Positions 9,907-46,015 of a stretch of 51,269 bases of DNA are shown one piece after another; positions within the stretch are counted from its first letter, which is position 1, and each line of letters opens with the position of its first letter. Location: sequence record PZ445518.1; one strand, given 5' to 3'. Position numbers and translations under genes: made by a program. The stretch comes from a phage. The notes under the pieces are model-generated. The model made no database searches and was not told where the DNA came from. It saw nothing but the letters and a program-made list of their open reading frames with translations.

Positions 9907-9943
9907 TTCCTGTAAAATCAATCTATCAAATAAATTAATTCCA

Positions 9944-9965
9944 CTTTTAACAAAAAGTGCTATAA
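9944..9965 (+). repeat. conserved 22-bp element, inverted copy in late region
   Basis: CTTTTAACAAAAAGTGCTATAA just upstream of chaperone RBS; on minus strand it is followed after 19 nt by TAGATT. Confidence 0.5.
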
Positions 9966-40859: not shown

Positions 40860-41089
40860 ACATCATTGATAAAATCAGCACGGCCCTTAATGTTGCTGAT
40901 GTGGAACGTCTTTTCAGCGTACAGGCCATCACCTTCAATCACGATCATTACGCGAGTCGGTTTATTCACGGGCGCACACGAAAAGAGTGGTCGCGCCGGA
41001 AGAAATTTAGTAGCCACATCCAGGTTAGCCCTGGCGGCCCTGCAAAACGCCTCCGCCAGATCCAAATCATTTTCGGTAATCACCGCCAT
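40823..41089 (-). CDS. hypothetical protein
   Basis: 88-aa ORF, coupled to upstream gene. Confidence 0.4.
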   Translation of the reverse strand: MAVITENDLDLAEAFCRAARANLDVATKFLPARPLFSCAPVNKPTRVMIVIEGDGLYAEKTFHISNIKGRADFINDVCLLQEKKKCWM

Positions 41090-41361
41090 TACTTCTTGAT
41101 CTCCTTACTGATAAATTTCAGCACCTGGCGCAAGAAAACTTCGTTGTTGATAGTCGCTGGCAATTCTTCTTTCACTTCTTGCGGCAGATAGATATTGCCG
41201 TGCCAGGTCAAGCAATCGTAGTTGATACGATAAGAGCAAAGCCACTCGCAATCGTTATCTGCTTCCCAAATGCAGAGTTGCAGAACATCGCCAAAATCTT
41301 CAACAGTCAGATCCAGACCGTGACGCTTAGCGAAATTGAAAGTGGTTTTGCTGATGTTCAT
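41089..41361 (-). CDS. hypothetical protein (first leftward early gene)
   Basis: ATG at 41361 after AGGAG; directly downstream of promoter cassette in divergent control region. Confidence 0.5.
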   Translation of the reverse strand: MNISKTTFNFAKRHGLDLTVEDFGDVLQLCIWEADNDCEWLCSYRINYDCLTWHGNIYLPQEVKEELPATINNEVFLRQVLKFISKEIKK

Positions 41362-41396
41362 TTACTATCTCCTGAGCGGTTCGTTTCGATGTGTGT

Positions 41397-41444
41397 AATG
41401 TACCCGATCAGGCGGCCTGAGTTTTAACAAAAAGTGCTATTTGA
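41397..41444 (-). promoter_or_regulatory. conserved-element promoter cassette (-10 TACATT) for leftward early operon
   Basis: Minus strand: AAATAGCACTTTTTGTTAAAAC, 19 nt, TACATT, leader CATCGAAACGAAC. Confidence 0.5.
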
Positions 41445-41979
41445 CGGTTAGCACCAGGATTGTGATCGAAATAATCAAAAGTAATCATTCGTAATCAAAT
41501 CACGTCAAAATGATGATTGCATTTGCAAATTTGATGAGAAAAGTAATCACGTTTAATCATTGGTTGCAGGGGAGATAGTGAAACCTTCCCCTCTTGCCTC
41601 ACTTTCCCGCCTGGCTGTCAGTGGTTGTTATGTTCCGTTCCCGCCTGTTCTTTTGTTGACCTTCCGCAAAATACGATAACAAAAAATAACAAACAATACC
41701 TATATAATACATTGAAAAATAAGGATTATTTATTTATATGTATCTATATATTATCTTTTGTTATCTTGGTTATTGTGGTATTTGGTGGGGGTATATAGTT
41801 TTTGTGTATCTATATGTGTGTATGGGTATGTAGGGGCATATATATCTATATGGCACTTTCCGCGAGAAAACTTCGATAACAGCCAATGATAACATTGATT
41901 TATAAGGAAAAATAACGCCAATATTGTTATTGTGCCACCATATAAAATTGATAAAACACGCGGGAACAAGAAAAAACAG
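41445..41979. promoter_or_regulatory. AT-rich divergent control region B (candidate operator/origin region)
   Basis: About 535 bp without ORFs; GTAATCA x3, palindrome ATTTGCAAAT, TTCCCGCCTG x2, TATGT/GTATCTATAT word repeats, GGGAACAAGAAAAA box. Confidence 0.5.
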
Positions 41980-42008
41980 TTGACACATTAAATAGCATTA
42001 TTGATAAT
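41980..42008 (+). promoter_or_regulatory. sigma70-type promoter for rightward early operon
   Basis: TTGACA, 17-nt spacer, GATAAT; about 30 nt upstream of ATG 42038. Confidence 0.6.
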
Positions 42009-42037
42009 GCCGACACCTAACAACCAGGAGGTAGAAA

Positions 42038-42502
42038 ATGAGCGAGCAATCATTAACTGACACGCTGCGCCGTGCAGCTATTATGCTGGCTAATGGCGAG
42101 GAAGAGGCGATCAAGATTCCTGACGCGTATTTGCAGGTCCACATGTTCGGCAAGAAGTCGGCAAGCAATCCGGCGGCCTACATTCGCCAGATCATGAGTC
42201 GAGTTCCAGAAGTCGCCGAGCGGGGGCGCGTATCCGTTACCCGTGGAGTTTACGGGCCGGAAGATGAAAACTTCGGTAGCACTTTCTACGAGGTGCGCAT
42301 TGTTGAAGGACGTCGCAAGGTTTACAACAAAGAGGCACTGGAAAGGGCAGTACGCCAGGCTAAGCGCAAGGTTGCAGAGGCGATCATTGATATGTCACCA
42401 AACCTAGCAAACTATGCGCCGGAAGAGTATGAAACATTATCAAAGGCCGTCGCTGACTTTCACGCGATGATCAAAAAAACTTTCCTGGAGGATGAGCAAT
42501 GA
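42038..42502 (+). CDS. hypothetical protein (first rightward early gene)
   Basis: AGGAGG RBS; downstream of TTGACA-N17-GATAAT promoter. Confidence 0.5.
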   Translation: MSEQSLTDTLRRAAIMLANGEEEAIKIPDAYLQVHMFGKKSASNPAAYIRQIMSRVPEVAERGRVSVTRGVYGPEDENFGSTFYEVRIVEGRRKVYNKEALERAVRQAKRKVAEAIIDMSPNLANYAPEEYETLSKAVADFHAMIKKTFLEDEQ

Positions 42503-42771
42503 AAAAGGCGTTAATCGGTGTTTTGGTGGCAATGGCATTCCTGACCGGATGTAAAGAAGATGGCGCGCATGTTGGCAATGTGCAGATGGCTAACCCTGGC
42601 GATGACTACAACGTAAGGGAGCTATTCACCGCTGACGGATGCACTGTTTACCGATTCTATGACGATCGCACTGTTTACTTCACCAACTGCAAGGGAACTA
42701 CTAGCTGGGAAGTGTCGAAAAGCAATGGCAAAGGCACGAAGACAGAACATATGACCGTCGAGACAAAATAG
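42499..42771 (+). CDS. lipoprotein (second putative exclusion-type lipoprotein)
   Basis: Signal peptide with lipobox LTGC (MKKALIGVLVAMAFLTGC); stop TAG inside conserved element. Confidence 0.6.
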   Translation: MKKALIGVLVAMAFLTGCKEDGAHVGNVQMANPGDDYNVRELFTADGCTVYRFYDDRTVYFTNCKGTTSWEVSKSNGKGTKTEHMTVETK

Positions 42772-42811
42772 CACTTTTTGTTAAAACTCAAAAACGATAA
42801 CCAGGCATAAT
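42766..42811 (+). promoter_or_regulatory. conserved-element promoter cassette (-10 CATAAT) driving structured leader
   Basis: AAATAGCACTTTTTGTTAAAAC (contains stop TAG of lipoprotein gene), 19 nt, CATAAT. Confidence 0.55.
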
Positions 42812-43013
42812 ACACACATAGACGGGCGGCAAGGATTGCTGCGGGAGAGGAGCGACGCAGGGGCTTGATCGAAGTGTCAGGATTCCCAACCGTGAGGCCA
42901 GAACTATCACACTCGCCACCAGGCAGAACGCTAGATAGGTCACTGAACTGAGGCTACCGACGAAGTGAAGCCCGTCACCAAAGATTAAACGGTTATTTAT
43001 GTGAAAGGGGTTA
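42812..43013 (+). ncRNA. GC-rich structured leader / candidate small RNA
   Basis: About 200 nt without convincing ORF; downstream of promoter cassette; 7-bp closing stem GACGGGC (42821-42827) with GCCCGTC (42970-42976). Confidence 0.3.
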
Positions 43014-43196
43014 ATGATGGATAAGATCATCAAAATGAGCGAAGTCAAGCCGGGAATGATGGTTAAATTTGCTGGCAAATATCGCCTAGTGCTGGATAAC
43101 TGCCGCAAAGAGAACATTCTTACAATTCGTGTAAATGGCAAGGCGCAGCTATTCGCCCCTAACGCAGATATTGACGTTGAAGTTAGAATTAAGTAA
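43014..43196 (+). CDS. hypothetical protein
   Basis: 60-aa ORF after long structured leader; RBS AAAGGGG. Confidence 0.45.
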   Translation: MMDKIIKMSEVKPGMMVKFAGKYRLVLDNCRKENILTIRVNGKAQLFAPNADIDVEVRIK

Positions 43197-43211
43197 TTAG
43201 GAGAAATCACC

Positions 43212-44336
43212 ATGTTAAAACTTGCTGACATTAAATTCCCGATCACCTTCGAATCTCGCGGCATTGGTCATTACATTTTTACTGATGAAAAAACATGCCA
43301 TAAGGTTAATATGAATAGCGACAAACTAAGCCCATCAACAATGGAGATTGAACACTTTATTGATGCGCACAATACGCAGTACAACGCACTTAAAGACTAT
43401 GGCTATGCAATGCCAGGCTACACATGTTTGCACTACAAGCCATATAAAGGCCAGGTGTTGCCAGTAAAAGAGAACAAGCAATTCCTGCTGGATAGCGAGG
43501 AGATTGTATACCCGATCACCTTTGAAACGGCAGGAAATAGCGTTGTGACTTTCACATCTCGCGACAACGGCACATATGGAAACGGCTTGAGAACAAGTTA
43601 TAATGTTGATTACTTCGTCGCCTGTCATAACATGGCTAATCCTAACAACGATAAGAACAAGGTGTACTACGTGCGCGATATTGAAAGGCAGTGGCCTAAG
43701 AAAGACTCCCAGGCAGAGATTCCGATGGTTCATATGAAAACCTGCGACTACAAAAAGCTGTGGTGCTTAAGTCTGGACAATATCAAGTATCCGATCACGT
43801 TCCGCACGACTGGTAAGTCAACGATTCGCTACACATCGCGCGAAAATGGCGTTTATAGCGATGGTACGAAATCAGGGTTGAAAGTTGATTTCTTTGTCAA
43901 CGGTCACAATAGATACAATCCGCACAACGAAGAGGATAAAGTGTACTACGTGGAAGACATTACAAAACACTTATTTGGAGAAACTCCATTCGGCGGCGGT
44001 AAGACGTCAATTCAAAAAATCATTGGCGATGAGATCCACAAAGCGGCTGCCGAAATGAAAGCTCCTGGAGGCTGGCGTATTGACAAGAGCGCATTTGCAA
44101 ATCAAGAAATCGTAACGCAGGGCGCAATTGAAGATATGCCAGTTGCAGCCACTCTAAAAGGAGTCCGGCTTGATGACGGCACCTGGTATGAAGTAACGGC
44201 TACACCAAAGACGATCGAGATTCATGATGACGTTGTTATCCTTCTGCTTCACTACGGCGGCTATAAAAACCGGACGATTGCAGGTGAGATCAGCATTAAG
44301 CGCGGAACGATGATTAAGTGGAAGGTGAAGATTTGA
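43212..44336 (+). CDS. protein with three tandem ~95-aa repeats (unknown function)
   Basis: Repeat units begin IKFPITFESRG / IVYPITFETAG / IKYPITFRTTG and each ends with a ..DKVYYV(R/E)DI-type block. Confidence 0.6.
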   Translation: MLKLADIKFPITFESRGIGHYIFTDEKTCHKVNMNSDKLSPSTMEIEHFIDAHNTQYNALKDYGYAMPGYTCLHYKPYKGQVLPVKENKQFLLDSEEIVYPITFETAGNSVVTFTSRDNGTYGNGLRTSYNVDYFVACHNMANPNNDKNKVYYVRDIERQWPKKDSQAEIPMVHMKTCDYKKLWCLSLDNIKYPITFRTTGKSTIRYTSRENGVYSDGTKSGLKVDFFVNGHNRYNPHNEEDKVYYVEDITKHLFGETPFGGGKTSIQKIIGDEIHKAAAEMKAPGGWRIDKSAFANQEIVTQGAIEDMPVAATLKGVRLDDGTWYEVTATPKTIEIHDDVVILLLHYGGYKNRTIAGEISIKRGTMIKWKVKI

Positions 44337-44412
44337 GTTTGCTCACTGCGGCGCACGTCGCCGCATGGATCGGATTGTTTTCCTACCTGTTTAGCTTTTA
44401 TTGAGGTGAGAG

Positions 44413-44565
44413 ATGGCTACCTGGATTTTGCTGATTCTTATGATTGATGGCGGCGTTGACCATATCGAAATGAATAGCCAGCAATCTTGCATTGAGGCAC
44501 GAGAGCAGATCAAGAACAACAACAGTTTTTATGCGTACACTCACACGCTATGTATTAAGAAATAG
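44413..44565 (+). CDS. small hydrophobic Cys-containing protein (50 aa)
   Basis: RBS GAGGTGAGAG; stop TAG inside conserved element; paralog of 45854..46015; below ORF-track cutoff. Confidence 0.35.
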   Translation: MATWILLILMIDGGVDHIEMNSQQSCIEAREQIKNNNSFYAYTHTLCIKK

Positions 44566-44604
44566 CACTTTTTGTTAAAACTCAAATGTGGGGCCAGGTA
44601 TAAT
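44560..44604 (+). promoter_or_regulatory. conserved-element promoter cassette (-10 TATAAT)
   Basis: AAATAGCACTTTTTGTTAAAAC, 18 nt, TATAAT flanked by GGCC..GGCC. Confidence 0.6.
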
Positions 44605-44634
44605 GGCCTCACTTTCAACGAAGGAGATAAAACG

Positions 44635-44856
44635 ATGTACATTAAAAATAAGATGAAATGCGTTTCCGTTAACTATGCTTGCTCTGGCATGTTCAAGCCT
44701 GGCGAAATCTATACGGCGCAAAAACTGAAAACATCAACCGGATCTTTTTACGTGAGCAATAGTAAGGGGTATCGCATGTTCCTGAACGGCGGCGAAGGCA
44801 CTAAGGTTATGGCACACGCTATGGTAATGGCTGAATTTGAGGAAGTGAAACAATGA
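44635..44856 (+). CDS. hypothetical protein (tandem paralog of next gene)
   Basis: ATG after AAGGAGA; shares PGE-IY / YxxFLNGxxGT / AEFEEV blocks with 44853..45098. Confidence 0.5.
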   Translation: MYIKNKMKCVSVNYACSGMFKPGEIYTAQKLKTSTGSFYVSNSKGYRMFLNGGEGTKVMAHAMVMAEFEEVKQ

Positions 44857-45098
44857 TCATTGAAAACAATTTTCTTTGCGTTAAGAGCAATAGACCATTC
44901 TTCACACCTGGCAAGGTGTACCAGGGCAAGAAGGACACAAGAGATGGTCACTCTTATCATGTTCACTGCAACAACGGATACAAGTTTTACCTTAACGGCG
45001 AGAATGGAACTGAGATTGTTGCGTTTGAAAACGTAGTTGCCGAGTTCGAGCAGATTACAGACGCGGAATTTGAGGAAGTGAAAGATGAAAACAAATAA
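44853..45098 (+). CDS. hypothetical protein (tandem paralog)
   Basis: ATG overlaps upstream stop (ATGA); paralogous blocks as above. Confidence 0.5.
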   Translation: MIIENNFLCVKSNRPFFTPGKVYQGKKDTRDGHSYHVHCNNGYKFYLNGENGTEIVAFENVVAEFEQITDAEFEEVKDENK

Positions 45099-45306
45099 GC
45101 GCGTCAAGCACAGGTTTACTGATAACCACGGCGACGCGATTGATGTATACAAGTTCGGCGATCGCGTGTTTATTGATGGCACGTTTGAAGGTGGTCGTAG
45201 GCCGGATTTTAGGTCGATACTTACCGTTGACCAAGTGCGCAAGCTGGCAGATAAGTTAAATGATCTGGCAGATGAAATAGAATACAAGCAAATCCATTTT
45301 AATTGA
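45085..45306 (+). CDS. hypothetical protein
   Basis: 73-aa ORF overlapping upstream gene by 14 nt. Confidence 0.45.
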   Translation: MKTNKRVKHRFTDNHGDAIDVYKFGDRVFIDGTFEGGRRPDFRSILTVDQVRKLADKLNDLADEIEYKQIHFN

Positions 45307-45317
45307 TAGGTTTTATA

Positions 45318-45857
45318 ATGAAAAAATACACTTTCGAACTATGGGGCAAGAAGTACGAATTAATCACCAGCAAGCCGATTGTTATCGTTGACCTGGACGG
45401 CACACTATCGGACGGATCGCATCGTTTGCATTTGCTGCCAACTGAAAGCTTGCACCTTACGGAATCGTGGCGCGAGTTTAACAGGGCCGCAGCAGGAGAT
45501 TCACCGATTAAAAGCACGATCGCGATTGTTAACGGTTTGTGGGTGTCGGGATTTGCCATCGTCATCTTGACCGGACGCAGCGACGAGGTGCGCTATGAAA
45601 CCTGCAAATGGTTGAATGAGAGCGGCGTGAAGTTTGACGAAATCATCATGCGCCGCCAGGAGGACAACCGAAAGGATACGGTTATTAAAGAAGAAGCCTT
45701 GCGCGCTATTGGCCTGGACAATATTGTTTGCGCCTTTGACGATTCGCCGAACGTTGTTAAGCACTTCCGCAGCCTGGGAATCACAACCTATCAGGTCACG
45801 GAATACGACAAGCCACACGCTCACCTGCAATCTCACGGCGTGGAGTGTTTAAAATGA
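45318..45857 (+). CDS. HAD-superfamily phosphatase / nucleotidase
   Basis: HAD motif I DLDGT (IVIVDLDGTLSD), motif II ILTGRS, downstream K and DD residues. Confidence 0.65.
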   Translation: MKKYTFELWGKKYELITSKPIVIVDLDGTLSDGSHRLHLLPTESLHLTESWREFNRAAAGDSPIKSTIAIVNGLWVSGFAIVILTGRSDEVRYETCKWLNESGVKFDEIIMRRQEDNRKDTVIKEEALRAIGLDNIVCAFDDSPNVVKHFRSLGITTYQVTEYDKPHAHLQSHGVECLK

Positions 45858-46015
45858 CTTGGTTGCTTTTAATCTTTGTCACAAGTTACAACTCCGCAGC
45901 TATTGAGTCGCAGGAGTTCCACGGCGAATCAAGATGCCAGGAAGCGCGAAAGCAAGTTATTCTCCACATGTCAGATAGTGGGAAGGATGTAACAGCGTTA
46001 TGCGTTCGTAAATAG
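45854..46015 (+). CDS. small hydrophobic Cys-containing protein (53 aa)
   Basis: ATG overlaps upstream stop (ATGA); stop TAG inside conserved element; paralog of 44413..44565. Confidence 0.35.
   Translation: MTWLLLIFVTSYNSAAIESQEFHGESRCQEARKQVILHMSDSGKDVTALCVRK

What the first reader, a model, noticed from the sequence alone, without database searches (positions are those of the whole stretch)
43212..44336. 374-aa protein built from three tandem ~95-aa repeats of an unrecognised domain
Three consecutive units start with I(K/V)(F/Y)PITF(E/R)(S/T)xG (IKFPITFESRG at residue ~7, IVYPITFETAG, IKYPITFRTTG) and each contains a later ..N(P/H)..D(K/N)KVYYV(R/E)DI-type block; units 2 and 3 are the most similar. 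A ~120-aa C-terminal region is unrelated. The gene has its own promoter cassette and long structured leader, and a small ORF (43014-43196) precedes it. I could not place the domain in any family I recognise. It may be a host-takeover or anti-defence factor, but the function is unknown.
Basis: seen in the sequence. Interest (0 to 1): 0.55.

Follow-up and report, generated by a model that had tools for sequence, protein, structure and literature searches.

The report
Triple-repeat early phage protein, function unknown
A T1-like phage gene really does encode three copies of a small, previously undescribed protein module plus a conserved barrel domain, but it is a rare recombinant of a catalogued family of unknown function; the more unusual item is the conserved folded RNA in front of its operon.

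Summary
The window is Shigella phage JK16 (Drexlerviridae). ORF 43212-44336 is JK16_00033, an annotated hypothetical protein.

**Observation:** confirmed. Three copies of a ~65-residue module lie at residues 1-65, 92-155 and 185-248 (HMM E 2e-11 to 4e-28). An unrelated C-terminal domain lies at 298-373.

**Family:** phrog_7116, which includes phage T1 Orf70. It has no Pfam, NCBIfam, PADLOC or PDB sequence match. Only 55 representatives turned up among 1.84 billion proteins. Relatives normally carry one or two modules; three occur only in JK16 and one other cluster.

**Origin of unit 2:** a ~247-nt cassette recombined in from another allele (91% identical), not a recent duplication.

**Function:** untested. 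I infer a non-enzymatic early adaptor or binding protein.

**Leader:** the "structured leader" is real. It is a ~155-nt RNA (42821-42976) with compensatory base changes, shared by early operons of at least four siphophage groups, and absent from Rfam.

The parts
42766..42792 (+). 27-nt promoter-like cassette AAATAGCACTTTTTGTTAAAACTCAAA. Its TAG is the stop codon of the upstream gene. A -10-like CATAAT follows at 42806-42811.
   Evidence: An exact second copy lies at 44560-44586. Further copies lie at 41416-41438(-) and 9939-9961(-), with 0 expected by chance. The core is conserved in T1, swan01 and other relatives, always at a gene end. The -10-like boxes are shown. Promoter activity was not tested.
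42821..42976 (+). Conserved structured leader RNA (covariance-model match 42817-42987). Helices:
- closing helix P1: 42821-42827 with 42970-42976
- hairpin P2: 42829-42839
- helix GGAGC 42849-42853 with GCUACC 42953-42958
- invariant arm: 42855-42893
- variable arm: P4 42899-42901 with 42943-42945; P5 42903-42908 with 42934-42939; P6 42915-42924
   Evidence: Covariance-model hit of 156.6 bits, E 3e-37, and the only copy in the window. 95% of cells are paired, against 81% in shuffles and 29-40% in slid controls. 18 of 44 pairs have changes on both sides. RNAalifold independently recovers P1, P2, P5 and P6. No Rfam match at E<=10.
43014..43196 (+). 60-aa ORF (JK16_00032, phrog_8121), the first gene of the transcription unit. 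Its stop codon ends 15 nt before the target's ATG.
   Evidence: Unrelated to the target's C-terminal domain.
43212..44336 (+). Target CDS JK16_00033, 374 aa. RBS AGGAG lies at 43200-43204.
   Evidence: phrog_7116 E 2.1e-92. Synonymous changes outnumber non-synonymous ones against relatives.
43212..43406 (+). Unit 1 (residues 1-65), the divergent 'N-terminal type' module. A conserved tail YAMPGY..YKPYKGQVLPV follows, up to residue 85.
   Evidence: HMM E 1.9e-11. Same strand-strand-strand-(strand)-helix-strand order as units 2 and 3 in the full model. 96.9% DNA identity to the two-unit gene of phage swan01.
43485..43676 (+). Unit 2 (residues 92-155). It lies inside the acquired segment 43466-43712 (gene nt 255-501).
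   Evidence: HMM E 4.3e-21. The segment is absent from swan01-type genes. An overlapping stretch (gene nt 248-499) is 91.3% identical to nt 248-499 of the P0207-type gene (L003). Unit 2 and unit 3 DNA are only 67.8% identical over 121 nt. Junctions are shown.
43764..43955 (+). Unit 3 (residues 185-248).
43956..44102 (+). Linker (residues 249-297), low-confidence and partly helical.
   Evidence: pLDDT below 50 over residues 258-299. Length and sequence vary among relatives.
44103..44330 (+). Conserved C-terminal beta-barrel domain (residues 298-373). It carries the family's most conserved motifs (IEDMP.GA.L.G, W, P..IEVHDD, E..IKRGT).
44347..44365 (+). GC-rich hairpin TGCGGCG-CACGT-CGCCGCA between the target and the next ORF.
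   Evidence: Read from the sequence. The scan did not call it a terminator. Function not tested.
44413..44565 (+). 50-aa ORF (JK16_00034, phrog_5579), the conserved downstream neighbour.
   Evidence: Homologous to T1 Orf69, which directly follows T1 Orf70.
44560..44586 (+). Second exact copy of the cassette, followed by TATAAT. It starts the next transcription unit.
   Evidence: (TTAAAA-18-TATAAT).

Best explanation
Shown:
- JK16_00033 is a genuine gene under purifying selection.
- It encodes a soluble 'beads-on-a-string' protein of the phrog_7116 / T1-Orf70 family, so far found almost only in T1-like (Drexlerviridae) phages.
- The family is built from two independent modules. One is a ~65-residue alpha/beta 'PITF' module (three or four short strands, a helix with the HN..NP.N motif, one more strand), present in one to three copies, with no solved structural counterpart. 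The other is a conserved ~75-residue SH3-like beta-barrel at the C-terminus, joined by a flexible linker.
- The three-module JK16 form arose by recombination. A ~247-nt segment carrying a diverged module from another allele type was inserted into an ordinary two-module gene.
- The gene sits in the accessory small-gene region next to pnk. It lies behind a conserved promoter-like cassette, a conserved structured leader RNA and a 60-aa ORF.

Inferred:
- The protein has no catalytic function and acts early in infection as an adaptor.
- The conserved barrel docks on a conserved partner. That partner is most plausibly a nucleic-acid or ribonucleoprotein machine, because the nearest folds are EF-P/eIF5A domain I, L2, L19, Pelota and KOW-type barrels.
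- The variable, exchangeable and multiplied PITF modules bind a second, more variable partner, with extra copies adding avidity or breadth.
For: - Repeat and domain limits.
- Family and narrow range: phrog_7116, E 2e-92; 55 of 1.84e9 representatives; 224 phage records, from Escherichia, Shigella, Salmonella and Citrobacter T1-like phages.
- Architectures among 307 collected proteins: U-U-C 163, U-C 107, U-U-U-C 2. Each module also occurs alone or fused to other unknown-function families.
- Recombinant origin. An independent second three-unit cluster, P0001, is 92% identical with 8 member sequences.
- Purifying selection, synonymous/non-synonymous codons: 12/6 for unit 2 and 9/3 for unit 3 plus the C-terminal domain.
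- Structure: with consistent weak Foldseek hits to small barrels.
- No signal peptide or transmembrane segment, pI 8.1, not acidic.
- No enzyme-family hit.
- Context: conserved synteny with the 50-aa ORF in T1 and JK16 and with the cassette.
Against: - Nothing here measures expression time, binding or phenotype. 'Early' rests only on position among small genes and pnk, away from structural genes, and on general knowledge of T1-like genome layout.
- Invariant polar residues could mark an active or metal site rather than an interface. These are H and N in the module, and E, HDD and KRGT in the barrel.
- The third module may add nothing functionally.
Confidence: 0.4

Rival explanations
1. Anti-defence effector. 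The PITF modules are inhibitors or decoys for a host immune sensor, and module number and type change by recombination under an arms race. The barrel multimerises or stabilises the protein.
For: - Patchy, accessory distribution and strong mosaicism. Module number is 1-3, alleles of both modules are exchanged, and both are fused to other domains.
- Location among small early-region genes.
Against: - Within a lineage, synonymous codon changes outnumber non-synonymous ones, which gives no sign of diversifying selection.
- No anti-defence library was available to test against.
Confidence: 0.2
2. The three-module architecture has no significance of its own. It is a neutral by-product of illegitimate or homologous recombination between two allele types, and the protein works exactly like the common two-module form.
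For: - Only 2 of 307 collected family members have three modules.
- The junctions fall in the linkers on short shared sequence (TGCCAGT at the left, GCAGAG at the right).
- The flanks are 97-98% identical to a two-unit gene.
Against: - The reading frame and the module's conserved residues are intact.
- The inserted unit has 12 synonymous against 6 non-synonymous codon changes relative to its donor type.
- A second, 92% identical three-unit cluster exists, so the form has persisted and diverged.
Confidence: 0.3
3. A structural or tail-fibre-associated virion protein, as one GenBank record annotates a homologue.
For: - PP988008.1 labels its homologue 'tail fiber protein'.
- There is a weak Pfam Gp53-like_C match.
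- Repeated small beta-rich modules are common in fibres and decoration proteins.
Against: - The Pfam match is 13.7 bits against a cut-off of 24.9, with no stretch passing on its own.
- The gene lies among small hypothetical genes and pnk, not in a structural module, in both JK16 and T1.
- All other records say 'hypothetical'.
Confidence: 0.05
4. A small enzyme, for example a nuclease or hydrolase using the conserved E / HDD / KRGT residues of the C-terminal domain or the H-N..N-P-x-N residues of the module.
For: Near-invariant acidic and histidine residues in the barrel (IEVHDD, E..IKRGT) and H, N and N in the module.
Against: - No hit to any enzyme family in Pfam, NCBIfam or PDB sequences.
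- Both domains are very small (65-75 residues).
- The nearest folds are non-catalytic binding barrels.
Confidence: 0.08

Closest known systems
phrog_7116 / VOG4991: phage T1 Orf70 (AAP49930.1) and its Drexlerviridae homologues, function unknown
   Same: - Same module and same C-terminal domain (E 2e-92).
- T1 Orf70 is 38% identical over residues 186-373.
- Same neighbourhood: followed by the 50-aa ORF, behind the same cassette, near pnk.
   Different: - T1 has one module (161 aa) and most Warwickvirus relatives have two (296-297 aa). JK16 has three, the middle one imported from a different allele type.
- JK16 and its close relatives also have the leader RNA and the 60-aa ORF in front, which T1 lacks.
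Translation-protein SH3-like / KOW-type small beta-barrels (EF-P domain I, EfpL, eIF5A N-domain, L2 C-domain, L19, Pelota N-domain)
   Different: - About 10% identity.
- No Pfam KOW or EFP_N hit.
- I see no PGKG-type modified loop or KOW glycine motif in residues 298-373.
- The family's own conserved motifs (IEDMP.GA, IEVHDD, IKRGT) are unrelated to those families.
Small beta-barrel reader or RNA-binding domains (Tudor/Spindlin, Sm/LSm, KOW) compared with the PITF module
Cis-acting leader RNAs of phage early operons (riboswitches; the HK022 put antiterminator RNAs) compared with the leader at 42821-42976
   Same: - It sits at the very 5' end of an early transcript, right after a -10-like box, in every phage that has it.
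- It has a multi-helix structure with covariation.
   Different: - No Rfam family at E<=10.
- No counterpart in HK022 with the family's own covariance model.
- The downstream genes differ between phage groups, unlike a gene-specific riboswitch.
- It is about twice the size of put as I recall it (from memory, not tested).

Membership tests
phrog_7116 / T1 Orf70 family (uncharacterised) | Significant match to the family profile over its whole length | tested here: met
   E 2.1e-92, 308.8 bits. Three matched stretches, the best covering residues 185-373 against profile positions 1-173 of 173.
phrog_7116 / T1 Orf70 family (uncharacterised) | N-terminal PITF module(s) followed by the conserved C-terminal barrel | tested here: met
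   U-U-U-C architecture by domain HMMs. Relatives are U-C or U-U-C.
phrog_7116 / T1 Orf70 family (uncharacterised) | Conserved position in the small-gene region of Drexlerviridae, followed by the 50-aa ORF | tested here: met
   JK16 annotation, T1 annotation, and T1 Orf69 is homologous to the JK16 50-aa ORF.
Translation-protein SH3-like / KOW barrels (EF-P domain I etc.) | Small five-to-six-stranded SH3-like barrel fold | tested here: met
Translation-protein SH3-like / KOW barrels (EF-P domain I etc.) | Sequence-profile membership (Pfam KOW, EFP_N, eIF-5a and similar) | tested here: not met
   No such Pfam family at E<=1. No PDB sequence hit with the domain profile.
Translation-protein SH3-like / KOW barrels (EF-P domain I etc.) | Functional signature: the modified Lys/Arg loop of EF-P (PGKG) or the KOW glycine motif, and binding to ribosome or RNA polymerase | not testable with these tools
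   I see no PGKG or KOW motif in residues 298-373 when reading the sequence. Binding needs experiments.
Tail fibre protein, Gp53-like_C (PF21882) | Score at or above Pfam's gathering threshold | tested here: not met
   13.7 bits against a cut-off of 24.9, E 0.094, with no stretch passing on its own.
Tail fibre protein, Gp53-like_C (PF21882) | Encoded within the tail or structural gene module | tested here: not met
   Neighbours are small hypothetical genes and pnk/HAD phosphatase in JK16, swan01 and T1.
Known anti-phage defence components (PADLOC) | Match to any model of the library | tested here: not met
   No family at E<=0.1 for the target or its four neighbours.
Known anti-defence proteins (Acr, Ocr/Ard DNA mimics and others) | Homology to, or acidic DNA-mimic character of, a characterised inhibitor | tested here: inconclusive
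Any Rfam 15 RNA family (for the leader RNA) | Covariance-model score reaching the family's gathering score | tested here: not met
   No match at E<=1 on 41000-46000. On 42800-43000 at E<=10 there is only a 9-bit snoRNA noise hit on the opposite strand.
HK022 put-type antiterminator RNA (for the leader RNA) | Homologous element in HK022 downstream of its early promoters | tested here: not met
   Model R1 with filters off gives nothing better than 10.7 bits (E 0.17) anywhere in HK022. Whether the leader has an antitermination function cannot be tested here.

The most novel reading that the evidence does not exclude
The locus could be a new kind of early-infection module made of two undescribed parts.

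1. A ~155-nt leader RNA with invariant 20-30-nt blocks. Unrelated virulent siphophages (Warwickvirus, Dhillonvirus, Murrayvirus, Alux-21-like) place it at the 5' end of early transcripts. It could bind a conserved host machine such as RNA polymerase, the ribosome or an RNase, and so control or protect early expression.

2. A protein whose PITF module is a new fold. Its EF-P/KOW-like barrel could dock on the host translation or transcription apparatus, with module number tuned by cassette exchange.
Probability: 0.12. Interest if true: 0.75.

Novelty: new variant of a known kind. Interest (0 to 1): 0.4.

Why it matters
**The protein.** It gives a clean definition of two new domain families: the PITF module and its partner barrel. 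Neither is in Pfam, and the module has no solved structural relative. It also shows module-level cassette exchange inside a single phage gene. That makes T1 Orf70, a gene of a classical model phage, a tractable target for partner-finding experiments. On its own this is one more uncharacterised accessory phage protein.

**The leader RNA.** This could matter more. It is a strongly conserved structure with compensatory base changes, at the start of early transcripts in several unrelated virulent coliphage groups. It is absent from 5,426 complete E. coli genomes and from Rfam. That points to an undescribed RNA-based control of early phage gene expression, which can be tested directly with reporter fusions and structure probing.

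Tried and rejected
**Family and structure searches that found nothing**
- Pfam, NCBIfam and PADLOC scans of the target and its neighbours found nothing usable.
- PDB sequence searches found nothing with the protein, the module profile or the barrel profile.
- Foldseek of the full model against PDB gave no hit at E<0.2.
- The afdb50 library was not available, so neither model was compared with the AlphaFold database or BFVD.

**Relationships tested and rejected**
- The tail-fibre annotation of one homologue: rejected because the Pfam score is below cut-off and the genomic context is wrong.
- The small upstream ORF related to the C-terminal barrel: rejected (hhalign probability 1.7%).
- The module related to the barrel: rejected.
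- The module related to T1 Orf71: rejected.
- Fusion partner P0250 being MazG-like, which I suspected from an EExGE-like motif: not supported by Pfam or PDB searches. All fusion partners belong to PHROGs of unknown function.
- A recent tandem duplication as the origin of the repeat: rejected, because unit 2 and unit 3 DNA are only 67.8% identical, while unit 2 is 91% identical to another allele.

**Leader RNA**
- The thermodynamic test was negative (z +0.64).
- Single-sequence MFE folds were inconsistent between relatives.
- My first version of helix P3 (GGGGCY with GGCYACC) showed only one-sided changes. I replaced it with GGRGC/GCYACC, which has a true G-C to A-U exchange.
- A resemblance to FMN-riboswitch blocks that I recalled from memory was not borne out by Rfam.
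- Homology to HK022 put RNA was not found.
- No similarity to any complete E. coli genome.

- The third homologue search, with an alignment of distant members, returned mostly the same multi-unit proteins and added little diversity.
- Five literature searches and two paper look-ups found nothing on this protein family or RNA.

Full report
**Identity of the locus.** The 1.9-kb stretch around the finding is 100% identical to Shigella phage JK16 (MK962751; Drexlerviridae, Tempevirinae, Warwickvirus). ORF 43212-44336 (+) is the annotated CDS JK16_00033, 'hypothetical protein' QEG04988.1. Its neighbours are small hypothetical genes:
- Upstream are a DUF7174 gene and a DUF4884 lipoprotein gene.
- Then comes a 60-aa ORF (43014-43196, phrog_8121), whose stop codon ends 15 nt before the target's ATG.
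- Downstream are a 50-aa ORF (phrog_5579), two small paralogous ORFs and a HAD-type phosphatase/pnk gene.

**Check of the observation.** The repeat is real.
- PITF motifs lie at residues 10, 101 and 194.
- Against 500 shuffles, unit 2 vs unit 3 scores z = 32.7, unit 1 vs unit 3 z = 8.0 and unit 1 vs unit 2 z = 4.7. No unit resembles the C-terminal part (z below 2).
- An HMM built from one-unit relatives finds three instances at 1-65, 92-155 and 185-248 (E 1.9e-11, 4.3e-21, 4e-28). A second HMM finds the C-terminal domain at 298-373 (E 1.6e-41).
- The folded module is about 65 residues, and the remaining ~27 residues of each period are linker.
- Profile-profile comparison confirms that the C-terminal domain is unrelated to the module.

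**Family and distribution.** The protein is not an orphan.
- It matches phrog_7116 (E 2.1e-92), a family of unknown function. The family is labelled VOG4991 in the swan01 record.
- tblastn finds it in 224 phage records, essentially T1-like phages of Escherichia, Shigella, Salmonella and Citrobacter. These include phage T1 itself, whose Orf70 is 161 aa with one module plus the barrel.
- An exhaustive profile search of 1.84 billion representative proteins found only 55 hits.
- There is no Pfam, NCBIfam or PADLOC hit and no PDB sequence hit.
- Among 307 collected relatives the architectures are U-U-C (163), U-C (107), C alone (21), U alone or fused (13) and U-U-U-C (2: JK16 and cluster P0001, which is 92% identical).
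- Both modules also occur fused to other domains, all of unknown function.
- In T1, as in JK16, the gene is followed by a homologous ~50-aa ORF.

**Origin of the triple form.**
- Gene nt 1-254 and 502-1118 are 96.9% and 98.2% identical to the two-unit gene of phage swan01.
- The segment in between (gene nt 255-501, window 43466-43712) is absent from swan01.
- An overlapping stretch of that region (gene nt 248-499) is 91.3% identical to nt 248-499 of a different allele type, the U-U-C protein P0207 on a 52-kb metagenomic phage contig.
- Unit 2 and unit 3 DNA are only 67.8% identical over 121 nt.
- So unit 2 was acquired by recombination between alleles, with junctions in the linkers on short shared sequences. 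It is not a recent tandem duplication.
- Synonymous codon differences outnumber non-synonymous ones in every segment: 4/3, 12/6 and 9/3. The gene is therefore maintained by selection.

**Structure.**
- The full-length AlphaFold model has mean pLDDT 70 and pTM 0.32. It shows three similar small domains (strand-strand-strand-(strand)-helix-strand), disordered linkers (84-88, 162-182, 258-299) and an all-beta domain at 299-373.
- A model of one module (residues 184-254), made with a 47-sequence alignment of modules, is confident: pLDDT 94.3 and pTM 0.82.
- The single-module model did not hit these structures. The match therefore belongs to the C-terminal domain, an SH3-like small barrel of the 'translation-protein SH3-like/KOW' type.
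- This is fold-level resemblance only. Identity is about 10%, and no KOW or EFP_N profile matches.
- Foldseek against PDB gave nothing significant, and the AlphaFold-database library was unavailable.

**Transcription-unit context.**
- The 27-nt 'cassette' AAATAGCACTTTTTGTTAAAACTCAAA occurs twice exactly (42766-42792 and 44560-44586), each time starting at the stop codon of the preceding gene. Diverged copies lie at 41416-41438(-) and 9939-9961(-), with none expected by chance.
- Its core is conserved at gene ends in T1, swan01 and other relatives.
- It is followed 12-13 nt later by a -10-like hexamer: CATAAT, TATAAT or TACATT.
- It is therefore a plausible family-wide promoter element. It serves the operon (60-aa ORF, target, probably the 50-aa ORF), not the target alone. 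Promoter activity is inferred.

**The leader RNA.** The 221 nt between the cassette and the 60-aa ORF contain no convincing ORF and fold no better than shuffled sequence (z +0.64). Yet blastn found the core in 180 phage records, including unrelated groups: Dhillonvirus, Murrayvirus (phage Lumpael) and the unclassified phage Alux-21. It is nearly always in unannotated DNA and always just downstream of a -10-like box.
- Invariant blocks of up to 29 nt alternate with stems that change by compensation:
  - P5 (6 bp) occurs in 8 versions.
  - P4 (3 bp) occurs in 3 versions.
  - P6 (3 bp plus a tetraloop) occurs in 3 versions.
  - The closing helix P1 occurs in at least 5 versions.
- A covariance model built from 7 sequences of one class finds a single copy in the window (42817-42987, 156.6 bits). 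It finds none in the first 6.4 kb of T1 or anywhere in HK022.
- On 26 instances, a nine-helix model with 44 pairs has 95.0% of cells paired, against 81.4% in shuffles (0 of 500 as high) and 29-40% when partners are slid. 18 pairs have changes on both sides.
- Caveats: the alignment was fitted to a related model, and the instances fall into only three or four clades.
- G-U pairs, for example CGCUGG/CCAGUG, indicate RNA on the + strand.
- A metagenome scan added 16 more instances from the same clades.
- Rfam 15 has no match at E<=10, and no complete E. coli genome carries similar sequence.
- The first downstream gene differs between phage groups: phrog_8121, phrog_3127 and phrog_38793. The element is therefore a generic early-transcript leader rather than a gene-specific switch.
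- Its function is unknown. Candidates are control of elongation or termination, control of mRNA stability or translation, or titration of a host factor.

**Most likely mechanism of the protein.**
- Shown: the modular architecture, the narrow phage-restricted family, the recombinational origin of the third module, purifying selection, the absence of secretion signals or of any enzyme signature, and the position in an accessory small-gene operon.
- Inferred (confidence about 0.4): a non-enzymatic adaptor made early in infection. The conserved barrel docks on a conserved partner, most plausibly a nucleic-acid or ribonucleoprotein machine given its nearest folds. The exchangeable PITF modules bind a more variable partner, with copy number adding avidity or breadth.
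- Rivals:
  - An anti-defence inhibitor or decoy (0.2).
  - The third module being a functionally neutral recombination by-product (0.3; this is compatible with either function).
  - An enzyme (0.08).
  - A virion or tail-fibre protein (0.05).

**Novelty and score.** The sequence and its family are already in public catalogues as 'unknown function'. New here are:
- the definition of the two domains;
- the lack of a solved counterpart for the module;
- the SH3-like nature of the barrel;
- the cassette-exchange origin of the rare triple form.

This is a new variant of a known, uncharacterised kind and is of moderate interest by itself.

Noticed in passing
window 42821-42976 (+); also L006-L035 and 16 of the loci L039-L118: A ~155-nt leader RNA with nine helices and compensatory base changes lies at the 5' end of early transcripts. 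It is found in Warwickvirus, Dhillonvirus, Murrayvirus and Alux-21-like phages. It has no Rfam match, no counterpart in HK022 and no similarity to complete E. coli genomes. The downstream genes differ between phage groups.
   Followed up: yes
window 42766-42792, 44560-44586 (+); 41416-41438, 9939-9961 (-); L002 1453-1469 and 2272-2288: A 27-nt cassette (AAATAGCACTTTTTGTTAAAACTCAAA) starts at the stop codon of the preceding gene and is followed by a -10-like hexamer. It is conserved at gene ends across T1-like phages and looks like a family-wide promoter or unit-boundary element.
   Followed up: partly
window 44635-44856 and 44853-45098 (+): Two adjacent small ORFs (73 and 81 aa as compared) are paralogues: 37% identity, E 4e-16. 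This is a tandem gene duplication just downstream of the second cassette. Function unknown.
   Followed up: partly
window 44413-44565 (+); L002 3389-3538: A 50-aa ORF with a hydrophobic N-terminus (phrog_5579) directly follows the target family's gene in both JK16 and T1 (Orf69). This is a conserved gene pair that might work with the target.
   Followed up: partly
window 44347-44365 (+): A GC-rich 7-bp hairpin (TGCGGCG-CACGT-CGCCGCA) lies in the 76-nt gap between the target and the 50-aa ORF. The scan did not call it a terminator, and swan01 has no annotated 50-aa ORF at this position.
   Followed up: no
window 42038-42771 (+): A DUF7174 gene overlaps (ATGA) the start of a DUF4884 lipoprotein gene whose signal peptide ends in a lipobox (LTGC). 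The lipoprotein is a possible envelope or superinfection-exclusion protein of this phage.
   Followed up: no
L002 2344-2832 (T1 Orf71): The T1 gene just upstream of Orf70 itself contains an internal repeat: ..IKLLSNGGYKGF.. and ..VRLLSNGGYPMR.. It is unrelated to the PITF module (hhalign probability 0.07%).
   Followed up: partly
phage records MG065685, MG065680, MG065679, MG065641 and others: Twelve to nineteen records named 'Campylobacter phage' with host Campylobacter jejuni carry sequence related to these E. coli T1-like phages. The protein matches are about 61% identical and the DNA matches about 90%. I suspect mislabelling or contamination of those entries but did not check it.
   Followed up: no
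protein P0222 (375 aa): One representative reads U-C-U-C, with the second half an exact repeat of the first and an out-of-frame-looking tail. It is probably an assembly or gene-calling artefact across a repeated contig end, not a real architecture.
   Followed up: no
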